Shown here: positions 3,212 to 6,200 of the stretch, in pieces
Layout: each line of letters starts with the position of its first letter
Position numbering within the stretch: position 1 is the stretch's first letter
Assembly (NCBI GenBank): GCA_003161635.1
Contig: PMOA01000148.1
Span: 26,144-90,143 of the forward strand
DNA: 64,000 nt
Direction of reading: 5' to 3'
DNA from: Limisphaerales bacterium
GTDB taxonomy: Bacteria > Verrucomicrobiota > Verrucomicrobiia > Limisphaerales > UBA11358
Translations under genes and position numbers: made by a program
Notes under the pieces: generated by a model
What the model saw: only the letters and a program-made list of their open reading frames with translations
The model's database searches: none
Told to the model about the DNA's origin: nothing

Positions 3212-6200
3212 TCACGCCACGACAATGTTCACCAGCTTCTTCGGCACAACAATGACTTTCTTGATCGTCTTGCCGGCGATGAATTGCTGCACTTTTTCCG
3301 AGGCCTTGGCGGCGGCTTCGACCGTGGCGTTATCGGCGTTGGCCGGGACCCGGATGACGTCGCGCAACTTGCCGTTGACCTGCACCGGGATTTCCAGCGT
3401 GTCCTCGACGAGCAGAGCGGGGTCAAACTTGGGCCAGGGTTGATAGCTCAATGAGTCCAAAGTCTCATGTCCAATGTCCAATGTCGCACCACCGTCCGCT
3501 GCCCTGACTTTGGACTTTGGACTTTGGACTTTGGACCACAACTCTTCCGCGATGTGTGGCGCAAAGGGCTGGAGCAAAACCAAAAATTCGCGCAAAACGG
3601 AAACCGGTTTCGTCTCCCACGTTATCGCGTCGTTCACAAAAACCATCATCGCGGATATCGCCGTGTTGAACCGCATCCCGTCGAGGTCTTCTGTGACTTT
3701 CTTGATGCAGGCGTGGAGCGTCTTGAGTTGTGCGGGAGTGGCCGGCACATCCTTGATGGCCGCATTGAGCTTGATCAGTTCCAGCAATTCTTCGCGTCTT
3801 TGCGTCTTTGTTGTTAATGTCTCCGCCTGCTCAAATTCCGTTTCGCTCGCTTCATCCACGAACAAACGCCAGACGCGGCCAAGAAAACGATAAACGCCCT
3901 CGACGCCCTTGGTATTCCACGGCTTCACCATCTCCAGCGGCCCCATGAACATCTCGTAAAGGCGGAACGCGTCCGCGCCGAACTCCACCAGAATGTCGTC
4001 CGGGTTCACCACGTTGCCGCGGGACTTGGACATCTTCTGGCCGTCCTCGCCAAGAATCAGACCTTGATTGACGAGCTTGAAAAACGGTTCGGGCGTTGAA
4101 ACGTGGCCGAGGTCGAACAGCACCTTGTGCCAGAACCGCGCGTAGAGCAGATGCAACACGGCGTGCTCCGTGCCGCCGACGTATAAATCAACTCCTTGAG
4201 TTCTGTAGCCGCCGACGTCAGTCGGCGCATTCTTTTCGGTGGAAGAAGTCAGCGCGGACTGATCCCGCACTGCGGGACGGCTACCCATCCAGTAAGTCTC
4301 CGCTTCACGTCCAACGAACGACCGCGCGTTCTTTGCGTCGAGATAACGCAAGTAATACCAGCAACTGCCGGCCCATTGCGGCATGGTGTTGGTTTCGCGC
4401 ACGGAACCGTCGGGCAGGTTCACCCAATCCTTCGCGCGCGCGAGCGGCGGCTGACCGTCGGGCATGGGTTTGTAATCGTCGAGCTTCGGCGGAAGCACGG
4501 GCAACGCGCTTTCCGGCAAGGCTTCGTGATAAAGATTCCCGCTGGCATCCTTCTTCCAGACAATCGGGAATGGCTCGCCCCAGTACCGTTGCCGGCTGAA
4601 CAGCCAGTCGCGCAACTTGAAGTTGACCGTCTGTTTGCCCAAGCCTTTTGCTTCAAGCCAGGCGGTGATTTTCTTTTTGGCGGCGGCGGTGGGCAGGCCG
4701 TTGAGGGAAACTTCGTTGTTTGCTGAATTTACGGCGAATCCTTCGGCGGAGTCACAAAGTAAACTGCTGGAGAAAACTGGCGTTTCTTTTTCGTTAATTT
4801 GAAAATACTCAACCTTCTCTTGAAGGTCGAAGTAGCCTTTAGCGCTATCAAAAGATTGACTCTTTTTGGGAGTAGTTGTAGCGACGACGGCTTTGATCTG
4901 AAGCTTGAACTTTGTTGCGAATTCAAAATCGCGCTCGTCATGCGCCGGCACGGCCATGATGGCGCCCGTACCGTAACTGGCGAGGACGTAATCGGCTATC
5001 CAGATGGGAATTTTCGGACCGTTGACGGGATTGATGGCGTAAGCGCCGGTGAACACGCCGGTCTTCTCTTTGGCCAATTCTGTGCGCTCCAAGTCGGATT
5101 TTCTAGCAACTTGTTTTCGGTAGTCTTCTATGGCTTTAACTTGCTTTGAAACCTCCTGCTTGTAGAAGCGGTGTTTGCCATAGTCCTGTAGAACACACGC
5201 GGGTGGATTTACATTAGGATTTACTTCAATCAAATCAACACCGCTAGTTTTCGCCTTAGCCAATGCGTCAGCCAGCGTAACCGTCTCTCCACTTCCACCG
5301 CCGAAAATTCGAACTGTGGGTGACGTAATTTGACCGTTGACCCGATAGTTATGGTTCGCAGCAGCAAGAATATTATCAATCAGCCAGTGTTCGGGTGCCA
5401 CAACCATGTATGTCGCGCCAAACAACGTATCAGGCCGAGTTGTGAACACGTCCATCGACAAACGATTCGGACCTGGAATTTCAATTTGGAATGTAACCGT
5501 TGCACCTTCGCTTTTGCCAATCCAATTCCGCTGCATTTCCTTGAGCGAATCACTCCAGTCAATGGTGTTGAGATCGGCGATTAATCGTTCAGCATAACGG
5601 GATATGCGAAGCATCCATTGGCGCATCATTTTTTTGCTGACTTCATAGCCGCCCACTTCGCTTTTGCCGTCTATAACTTCTTCGTTTGCCAACACAGTGC
5701 CAAGCGTTTCACACCACCAAACAGGGGCATCAGCAACATATGCAAGACGATGCTTGTCTATTTCCTTGCGCCTGAATTCAGCTCGTTTTTCTGTGGGGGT
5801 TAGCACATACCCATTCCGCAAGCCTGACACATATTCACCGTATTCTCCTTTTGTCCATTCCCGCTTTGGATTTTCTGACATGACGTCTTCAAGAATTTCA
5901 ATTAATTCAGCCTTGTTGGTATCAGGATTGAACCATGAATTGTAAAGCTTGAGGAAAATCCACTGCGTCCACTTGAAATAACCGGGGTCGGTGGTGGCGA
6001 GTTCGCGCGACCAGTCGTAGCTGAAGCCGAGCGACTGGATCTGCCGCTTGAACGTGGCGATGTTCACCTCGGTGGTCTGGCGCGGATGCTGGCCGGTCTT
6101 GATGGCGTATTGCTCAGCAGGCAGTCCGAACGCGTCCCAACCCATCGGATGCAACACATGAAATCCCTGCGCGCGTTTGTATCGCGCGAGAATATCCGTG

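What the first reader, a model, noticed from the sequence alone, without database searches (positions are those of the whole stretch)
4196..4287. Intergenic-type REP element inserted in frame in the LeuRS catalytic core
Thirty extra codons ([30 protein letters not shown]) sit just before the conserved [18 protein letters not shown] block. The DNA is a copy of the palindromic element found in the intergenic spacer 1 kb away. 4202-4228 is the exact reverse complement of 3182-3208 (27/27), and further blocks are shared. This resembles Rickettsia palindromic elements (RPEs), which colonise coding sequences without destroying them, but here in a PVC genome and in an essential enzyme.
Basis: seen in the sequence. 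Interest (0 to 1): 0.6.

Follow-up and report, generated by a model that had tools for sequence, protein, structure and literature searches.

The report
REP hairpin pair translated inside leuS
A pair of small mobile DNA hairpins (a GTAG-type REP doublet) sits in frame inside the only leucyl-tRNA synthetase gene of a soil Verrucomicrobium and is read as 30 extra amino acids; this is real, but the behaviour was already described for Verrucomicrobia in 2013.

Summary
Window 4196-4285 is a 90-nt, 30-codon insert in leuS (minus strand). Its core, 4205-4284, is a REP doublet: two GTAG-tagged hairpin arms facing each other across a 23-nt spacer. One arm matches 27/27 the arm of an intergenic doublet at 3121-3205.

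- **Family size:** about 95 arms and 37 doublets in this 4.3-Mb genome, none in a shuffled genome.
- **Inside genes:** 15-16 doublets lie in frame in conserved genes, including mutS (twice), mutY, ogg, priA, pheT, gatB, ispG and metH.
- **Position in the enzyme:** against T. thermophilus LeuRS the insert falls exactly between residues 530 and 531.
- **Function:** leuS is single-copy, so the enzyme must work with the insert.
- **Same codon elsewhere:** dozens of public LeuRS carry this doublet there (inserts of 72, 81 or 90 nt). Others carry different REP families, a different reading phase, heptamer palindromes, or almost nothing.
- **Conservation:** the REP arm is about ten times more conserved than neighbouring synonymous sites, while the spacer evolves freely.

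The kind is known: intragenic GTAG REP dimers, most numerous in Opitutus terrae (Di Nocera 2013), and Rickettsia RPEs. This scan has already found it in other Verrucomicrobia. No cognate RAYT was found. Verdict: new member of a known kind.

The parts
3212..6523 (-). leuS, leucyl-tRNA synthetase, 1103 codons from the first TTG; the public protein of 1080 aa starts further downstream. It is the only leuS in the genome.
   Evidence: ORF list and translation. Matches T. thermophilus and E. coli LeuRS structures at E 1e-166 and below. Only one full-length match in G000.
4196..4285 (-). 90-nt in-frame insert, residues 747-776 of P0001: [30 protein letters not shown].
   Evidence: Translation. Falls between residues 530 and 531 of 1h3n. 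Absent or different in relatives.
4205..4228 (+). REP arm of type T1, GTAGCCGCCGACGTCAGTCGGCGC: GTAG tag, then a 6-bp stem GCCGAC/GTCGGC with a 4-nt loop. Read on the minus strand as APTDVGGY.
   Evidence: Exact copies occur on 20 other contigs.
4229..4251 (.). 23-nt spacer between the arms. Its sequence varies among family members and among orthologous leuS alleles.
   Evidence: family copies; spacer diversity 0.42.
4252..4284 (-). REP arm of type T3, GTAGCCGTCCCGCAGTGCGGGATCAGTCCGCGC, with its GTAG at 4284-4281 on the minus strand. Read as (G)[10 protein letters not shown].
   Evidence: 14 T3 arms in the genome. Other leuS alleles carry a T2 arm here next to the same spacer.
3121..3205 (.). 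Intergenic doublet of the same family, between the stop of the upstream convergent ORF (3115) and the leuS stop (3212). Left arm 3121-3144 is degenerate (GTGG...); right arm 3182-3205 is exact.
   Evidence: G017 has a T1 arm at the matching place just after its leuS.

Best explanation
The insert is a REP doublet (REPIN-like): two GTAG-tagged hairpin arms in inverted orientation around a variable spacer. It belongs to a family dispersed through this genome. It landed in a permissive loop of LeuRS, four residues before the strand VDLYVGG, in a phase without stop codons.

It is transcribed and translated as a 30-residue hydrophilic loop, and the enzyme still works.

Mobilisation is inferred to be by a RAYT-type Y1 (HUH) transposase acting on single-stranded hairpins.

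The element is not a decaying relic. Its arms are kept at the nucleotide level, by gene conversion or RAYT-linked turnover among family copies, or by selection on the hairpin. The spacer drifts freely.

Different insert alleles at this codon move between related lineages through short recombination patches.
For: **Shown**
- **Anatomy and copy number.** About 95 arms at up to 4 mismatches, against 0 in a shuffled genome, and 37 convergent pairs. At up to 3 mismatches there are 75 arms in G000 and 4-49 in four congeners.
- **Inside genes.** 15-16 doublets sit in open frames with Pfam domains on both sides or spanning the insert. Phase 2 would read G|TAG as a stop, and only phases 0 and 1 are used.
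- **Clean empty site.** At mutS residues 200-222, 14 of 15 relatives have nothing. There a 70-nt doublet plus a 1-nt deletion nearby gives a net +69 nt, with no target duplication.
- **An insertion in leuS.** It falls between T. thermophilus residues 530 and 531.
- **Single leuS** in the genome.
- **Not an assembly artefact.** The identical protein is on record from 17 contigs, and the same doublet at the same codon appears in dozens of distinct public LeuRS clusters. 18 metagenome loci give inserts of 72, 81 or 90 nt.
- **Arm conservation.** Arm diversity is 0.052 (third codon positions 0.037). Flanking third positions show 0.39-0.40, the spacer 0.42 and the 9-nt tail 0.43.
- **Arm exchange.** T2 and T3 arms occur next to the same spacer in different leuS alleles.
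- **Recombination patch.** Two otherwise identical leuS genes differ only in a patch of about 250 nt around the insert.
- **Hairpin strength.** The RNA folds at -38.2 kcal/mol, z = -2.85.

**From the literature**
RAYTs cleave REPs at the GTAG tag, and intragenic REP dimers are known (PMC3733652).
Against: - None of the six intact Y1_Tnp genes of G000 is flanked by this REP family, so the mobilising enzyme is unidentified. The assembly is 94.6% complete.
- The AlphaFold model is unreliable here: pLDDT is below 50 for the insert and the neighbouring core. 'Surface loop' therefore rests only on the natural length variation at this site.
- The loci used for the diversity figures were selected by an exact partial match to the other arm, which may favour well-kept alleles. 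Some public alleles do show decaying arms, such as GHGGGQSA and GSCERQSA.
Confidence: 0.85

Rival explanations
1. The hairpin at this codon has a function of its own for leuS, such as a translational pause between the two halves of the catalytic fold, mRNA stabilisation, or a DNA-level site. On this view the loop is kept occupied by some palindrome, and the REP doublet is one of several interchangeable fillers.
For: - 121 of 125 LeuRS in the sample carry 16-38 extra residues here, many of them encoded by long hairpins of -25 to -50 kcal/mol.
- The REP arm, including its third codon positions, is about ten times more conserved than flanking synonymous sites.
Against: - Four relatives have only 7-11 residues and no hairpin. 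Several others keep a single-arm array that does not fold: L020, L027, L029 and L031, at -4 to -8 kcal/mol.
- T. thermophilus and E. coli have nothing here.
- The same arm sequences are equally well kept at dozens of unrelated loci, so their conservation is a property of the family, not of leuS.
- The sample of 125 is enriched for look-alike inserts, because the query contained the insert.
Confidence: 0.1
2. The segment was not inserted as a mobile unit. On this view it is an old variable loop whose DNA was overwritten in place by gene conversion from REP copies elsewhere, so the locus is old and only the sequence is new.
For: - At this leuS codon, T1-type and RRGNE-type REP alleles begin at the same position and in the same reading phase, as read from the peptides.
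- At the pheT site the same holds at the DNA level, and the spacer core ACTTCGG is shared there.
- T2 and T3 arms alternate next to one spacer.
- The closest relatives carry heptamer palindromes at the leuS site.
Against: - The clean empty site at mutS residues 200-222 shows that the family does enter unoccupied DNA.
- The leuS insert has both complete arms and a family-typical spacer length.
- Alleles in another phase and at another boundary (VAANVSS...) need separate events.
Confidence: 0.2
3. The insert is an assembly or binning artefact, or the gene is a pseudogene.
For: The genome is a 159-contig metagenome-type assembly. Reads could not be checked.
Against: - The identical protein is recorded from 17 contigs, up to 397 kb long.
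- 18 metagenome loci from other samples carry the doublet at the same codon, always as a multiple of 3 nt.
- The frame is open for 1103 codons with all LeuRS motifs present.
- There is no other leuS in the genome.
Confidence: 0.02

Closest known systems
Intragenic GTAG-tagged REPs and REP dimers (Di Nocera, De Gregorio and Rocco 2013, BMC Genomics 14:522, PMC3733652), most numerous in Opitutus terrae
   Same: - GTAG tag followed by a 6-8 bp stem.
- Inverted dimers with variable spacers.
- Dimers read as 20-30 residues inside known proteins.
- A verrucomicrobial host.
- A preference for replication and repair genes and for tRNA synthetases. Here: mutS twice, mutY, ogg, priA, leuS, pheT and gatB.
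- One reported case of different REPs at about the same site (Xanthomonas recB).
   Different: - Another lineage: subdivision 3, judging by the names of near-identical public proteins.
- Another arm sequence. GTAGCC does not occur in the main text of the paper; its figure of consensus sequences is not held as text, so identity to GTAG-1 to -24 could not be excluded.
- The paper's supplementary table of intragenic REPs lists glycyl- and isoleucyl-tRNA synthetases in the passages retrieved. No leucyl-tRNA synthetase entry was seen in those passages.
- The nucleotide-level conservation of the arms inside a gene and the recombination patch were not reported there, as far as the text searched shows.
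REPINs and their RAYT transposases (Bertels and Rainey 2011; later preprints listed)
   Same: - Two inverted REPs forming one long hairpin.
- Tens to hundreds of copies per genome.
- Copy number differs strongly between congeners.
- Long persistence at one locus with sequence maintenance.
   Different: - Classical REPINs are extragenic and flank a single-copy RAYT.
- Here about 40% are inside genes, and no RAYT flanked by this family was found.
Rickettsia palindromic elements (RPE; Ogata et al. 2000, as cited in PMC3733652)
   Same: Palindromic repeats inserted in frame into essential genes without destroying them. They are read as hydrophilic extra segments.
   Different: - No sequence relation was tested or is apparent.
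- RPE-1 is longer (my recollection: roughly 100-150 bp).
- The RPE-4 and RPE-6 units that Di Nocera et al. matched to a REP family belong to the CGTC-tagged type, not GTAG.
- RPEs occur in an obligate intracellular alphaproteobacterium.

Membership tests
GTAG-type REP / REPIN | Short imperfect palindrome (20-40 nt) able to form a hairpin | tested here: met
   Stem GCCGAC/GTCGGC with a 4-nt loop in the T1 arm. T2 and T3 carry compensated stems. The whole insert folds at -38.2 kcal/mol.
GTAG-type REP / REPIN | Conserved GTAG tetranucleotide at one end of each unit | tested here: met
   GTAG at 4205-4208 (+) and 4284-4281 (-). It is present in nearly all 95 arms.
GTAG-type REP / REPIN | Many dispersed copies in the genome, far above chance | tested here: met
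   95 arms at up to 4 mismatches, spread over many of the 159 contigs, against 0 in a shuffled genome. 75 arms at up to 3 mismatches, against 0 for the reversed pattern.
GTAG-type REP / REPIN | Units paired in inverted orientation around a short spacer (doublet) | tested here: met
   37 convergent pairs spanning 62-105 nt, plus one of 202 nt, with the GTAG ends outward and variable spacers.
GTAG-type REP / REPIN | A cognate RAYT (Y1_Tnp) gene flanked by the same REPs | tested here: inconclusive
   There are 6 intact and 4 partial Y1_Tnp matches. None is flanked by this family. Those on C149 and C83 are flanked by other GTAG families. The assembly is 94.6% complete and fragmented.
GTAG-type REP / REPIN | Extragenic location | tested here: not met
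   15-16 of 37 doublets lie inside conserved genes. The literature accepts intragenic members (PMC3733652), so this does not exclude membership.
Rickettsia palindromic elements (RPE) | Sequence membership in an RPE family of Rickettsia | not tested
   No RPE sequences were compared. The resemblance is in behaviour only.
Rickettsia palindromic elements (RPE) | In-frame residence in functional protein genes | tested here: met
MITE (transposase-derived miniature element) | Target-site duplication flanking terminal inverted repeats | tested here: not met
   At the mutS empty site, CTGCTCC|GGGGC compares with the filled CTGCTTG[70 nt]GGGGC, so nothing is duplicated. The only flank signal is a pyrimidine preference at positions -2 and -1.

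The most novel reading that the evidence does not exclude
Intragenic REP doublets in this lineage may be living members of the REPIN population, not dead insertions.

On this reading a few protein loops (LeuRS 746/777, MutS about 677, PheT about 306) act as long-lived landing pads. There the arms are rewritten in place to whichever REP family is active in that genome, while the spacer survives. Whole insert alleles, including heptamer palindromes, would then be traded between lineages in recombination patches of about 250 nt. Essential genes would thus serve as safe harbours that keep REP arms intact over long divergence.
Probability: 0.35. Interest if true: 0.55.

Novelty: new member of a known kind. 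Interest (0 to 1): 0.35.

Why it matters
The case shows that an essential, highly conserved enzyme tolerates a 30-residue segment of selfish-DNA origin nine residues from an invariant active-site motif. It also shows that such a segment can be kept for a long time.

For annotation, LeuRS and many other housekeeping proteins of soil Verrucomicrobia carry repeat-encoded loops. These inflate protein lengths, split alignments and distort trees.

For REP and REPIN biology, the contrast within one reading frame is a clean natural experiment. Arm diversity is 0.05, while spacer and synonymous-site diversity is about 0.4. This indicates that the arms are maintained as nucleic acid, not as protein.

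None of this changes the known picture. It extends it to another lineage and another gene.

Tried and rejected
- **AlphaFold2 model.** The full LeuRS was modelled with 91 aligned homologues. Mean pLDDT was 65, and the insert and the adjacent Rossmann core were below 50. It is useless for placing the loop. The homologues are too similar to each other (70-83% identity), and no more diverse permitted set was available.
- **Genome-collection scan.** The pattern was too short, which was my error.
- **Cognate RAYT.** Searches found none flanked by this family. A Y1_Tnp gene next to leuS in two metagenome contigs has its own 17-nt terminal inverted repeats, is not flanked by these REPs, and has no homologue in G000.
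- **Rfam.** Window 2900-4500 at E up to 1 gave nothing.
- **Target-site duplication.** None was found.
- **Ancestral peptide, pseudogene, artefact.** All rejected; see the rival explanations.
- **Heptamer census.** A quick census of heptamer-array palindromes was too crude to use.

Full report
**The observation**

leuS lies on the minus strand at 3212-6523. The 27-nt inverted match 3182-3208 / 4202-4228 is exact. The 24-nt arm GTAGCCGCCGACGTSAGTCGGCGC occurs twice in the window, and none is expected in shuffles. The peptide [30 protein letters not shown] (P0001 residues 747-776, window 4285-4196) directly precedes [18 protein letters not shown].

**Anatomy**

Comparing copies from many contigs shows the unit. 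It has an arm GTAGCCGCCGACGTSAGTCGGCGC (T1), then a spacer of about 20-50 nt with no conserved sequence, then an inverted second arm. The second arm is of type T1, T2 (GTAGCCGCGGACGTCAGTCCGCGC, with a compensated stem) or T3 (GTAGCCGTCCCGCANNGCGGGATCAGTCCGCGC). The GTAG ends face outward.

In leuS the parts are:
- T1 arm at 4205-4228;
- spacer at 4229-4251;
- T3 arm at 4252-4284.

The intergenic copy, 3121-3205, lies between the 3' ends of two convergent genes, a classical REP position. The insert RNA folds into one long hairpin of -38.2 kcal/mol (z = -2.85). Rfam has nothing here.

**Census in the genome**

The window is G000:C83:26144-90143. At up to 4 mismatches there are 95 arms, against 0 in a shuffled genome. 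They form 37 convergent pairs and 21 singles. For 15-16 pairs a long open frame runs through the element, and Pfam finds domains on both sides or spanning it.

The host genes are:
- LeuRS, and MutS at residues 673-697;
- MutY, OGG and PriA;
- PheT, GatB, IspG and MetH;
- a CofH/MqnC-like radical SAM enzyme and a glutamate-synthase-like protein;
- an AIRS-family protein and a copper P-type ATPase;
- xanthine dehydrogenase and a pyrimidine-phosphorylase-like protein;
- a multihaem cytochrome, where the element is near the N-terminus and so less certain.

MutS also holds a further copy at residues 200-222. Its second arm is degenerate, so the census counted it as a single.

Only two phases are used. 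Phase 0 reads VAADVSPR... and phase 1 reads xSRRRESA... The third phase would read G|TAG as a stop. The encoded peptides are rich in S, A, R, T, D, G and P.

The genome also holds other GTAG hairpin families: GTAGGGnnGCGC, GTAGCGCAGnnn and GTAGCCGTGGGA.

**Is it an insertion?**

HMMER aligns YWM(746) to T. thermophilus residue 530 and G777-VDLY to residue 531 onward (PVDQY), so the 30 residues have no counterpart.

Among 19 relatives from the same genus and order, four have only 7-11 residues here (for example ASNGKAA). The others carry unrelated segments of 16-38 residues. Many of those segments are long hairpins built from tandem heptamers and their complements, and a few are single-arm arrays that do not fold. 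None of the 19 has this REP family at the site.

A clean empty site exists elsewhere. At MutS residues 200-222 the doublet is unique to G000, and 14 of 15 relatives have nothing. At the DNA level this is a 70-nt doublet plus a 1-nt deletion in the next 9 nt, for a net +69 nt, with no target duplication. A 1-nt deletion so close to the insert suggests the frame was restored after insertion.

Flanks of all 95 arms show only a pyrimidine preference at -2 and -1.

**Is the gene functional and the assembly sound?**

G000 has one leuS. The identical protein is on record from 17 contigs.

A search of 5.8 billion proteins with residues 650-900 returned 120 LeuRS. Of these, 42-46 read GSRGRQSA...(K/S)(N/S)APTDVGGY or the T3 form [11 protein letters not shown]... 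at the same codon. The rest fall into these groups:
- GSRRGNEAD...PPPHVGGY, another REP family with the same boundary and phase;
- ..VAANVSS...SGLTSAATP, a related family in the other phase at another boundary;
- VAAVCDRR...;
- heptamer-type palindromes.

This sample is enriched for look-alike inserts, because the query contained the insert.

A pattern anchored on the flank and part of arm 1 found 17 metagenome loci. Their inserts are 72, 81 or 90 nt long.

**Evolutionary behaviour**

- **Turnover at the site.** On a tree of 125 LeuRS built without the insert columns, the site needs at least 43 changes among six states.
- **Recombination patch.** This turnover is largely recombination. L064 and L065 have no differences in their first 1,900 nt. 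They differ almost only in a patch of about 250 nt that holds the insert (REP doublet versus heptamer palindrome) and diverged flanking codons.
- **Shared alleles.** The same allele, with the same spacer, recurs in distant branches.
- **Diversity among alleles.** Among 15-18 REP-bearing alleles, nucleotide diversity is 0.39-0.40 at flanking third codon positions, 0.42 in the spacer and 0.43 in the 9-nt tail. In the arm not used for the search it is 0.052, and 0.037 at its third codon positions. The arms are therefore maintained as nucleic acid. The caveat is that loci were selected through arm 1, and some public alleles show decaying arms.
- **Arm exchange.** T2 and T3 arms occur next to the same spacer (G000 and L199 versus L064).
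- **The same pattern in pheT.** G000 has a T1-type doublet and its closest relative G011 an RRGNE-type doublet, starting at the same nucleotide and sharing the spacer core ACTTCGG. 15 of 19 relatives are empty there. This suggests arms can be rewritten in place.
- **Copy number.** The family's copy number differs widely among congeners: 75, 49, 19, 7 and 4.
- **A second variable site.** MutS around residue 677 is another site where most relatives carry a different insert. One of them (G003) has this same REP family there.

**Mechanism**

Shown: the element, its family, its in-frame residence in the sole leuS, its persistence across diverged lineages, arm conservation, and allele exchange by recombination.

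Inferred: mobilisation by a RAYT-type Y1 transposase on single-stranded hairpins, translation as a surface loop, and arm maintenance by gene conversion or RAYT-linked processes.

No cognate RAYT was found. The structure model failed locally, and reads could not be consulted.

**Comparison with what is known**

Di Nocera et al. 2013 (PMC3733652) define GTAG-tagged REPs and describe intragenic members. In their survey Opitutus terrae has the most. [quoted passage not shown] Replication and repair genes and tRNA synthetases are recurrent hosts, and different REPs lie at about the same site in Xanthomonas recB. RPEs of Rickettsia behave alike.

This scan has already recorded in-frame REPs in other Verrucomicrobia and Kiritimatiellae. 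Those records include another leuS, and loops of uvrB and hrpB that hold many different hairpin families.

**Verdict**

It is a new member of a known kind. The added value is modest: nucleotide-level maintenance of the arms inside a coding frame, the recombination patch, and hints of arm replacement in place.

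Noticed in passing
window 3454-3536 (minus strand, leuS residues about 996-1023): A second in-frame palindrome lies in the same gene. It is built from GTCCAAA-type heptamers and their complement (arms 84% complementary) and is read as [24 protein letters not shown]. 14 of the 18 relatives that cover this site lack it. It is shared with G018 and some public LeuRS, and other heptamer families occupy the same site elsewhere.
   Followed up: partly
window 5144-5353: An IF3 N-terminal-domain-like module is inserted in the LeuRS editing region. 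It is shared only with G018 among 19 relatives, and with the public LeuRS that carry PF05198. The scan has already reported it (e1-2818989).
   Followed up: partly
window about 4754-4873 (P0001 residues 551-590): A 40-residue segment ([20 protein letters not shown]...SSSLLC) replaces the 7-8 residues (typically DPKTDWxG) found in 12 of 19 relatives. Seven relatives carry unrelated 31-47-residue segments at the same place.
   Followed up: no
L066:2898-3947 (metagenome contig with a near relative's leuS): A 349-aa Y1_Tnp gene sits directly upstream of leuS. It is bounded by inverted repeats of about 17 nt (GGGGTCACATCTTAACA), not by REPs, and has no homologue in G000.
   Followed up: partly
G000:C149:20620-21315 and G000:C83:18630-19443 (outside the window): Y1_Tnp genes here are flanked by other GTAG hairpin families, GTAGCCGTGGGATTCATCCCACGG and GTAGCGCAGRCATTCCTGYCTGC. 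These are probably REP-RAYT units for other REP families in this genome.
   Followed up: partly
G000, 12 heterodimeric doublets inside genes: Ten are read with the T2 or T3 arm first and the T1 arm second; two are the other way round. This may be a strand bias of insertion relative to transcription or replication. The sample is small.
   Followed up: no
G000:C108:8338-8407, C110:51498-51567, C149:26010-26079 and others: A subfamily of 70-nt doublets carries extended conserved flanks, CCCATGAACCTC before the T2 arm and CCCYTGAACC before the T1 arm. It is read as ..MNL-VAADVSPRTL...ADSRRRLR-FRG. This looks like a longer composite element.
   Followed up: no
G000:C49:21690-24335 (pheT), residues 644-670 and 204-220: Two further G000-specific or near-specific insertions in PheT (SSAGSPGVPPGGATENRANSQAGSLCH and SEGGVPRRPDSEANLGA). 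They look like other repeat families.
   Followed up: no
G017:C8:135764-135787: A T1 arm lies about 10 nt after the end of leuS in relative G017, at the position matching the intergenic doublet at window 3121-3205. G017 carries a heptamer palindrome at the intragenic site.
   Followed up: no
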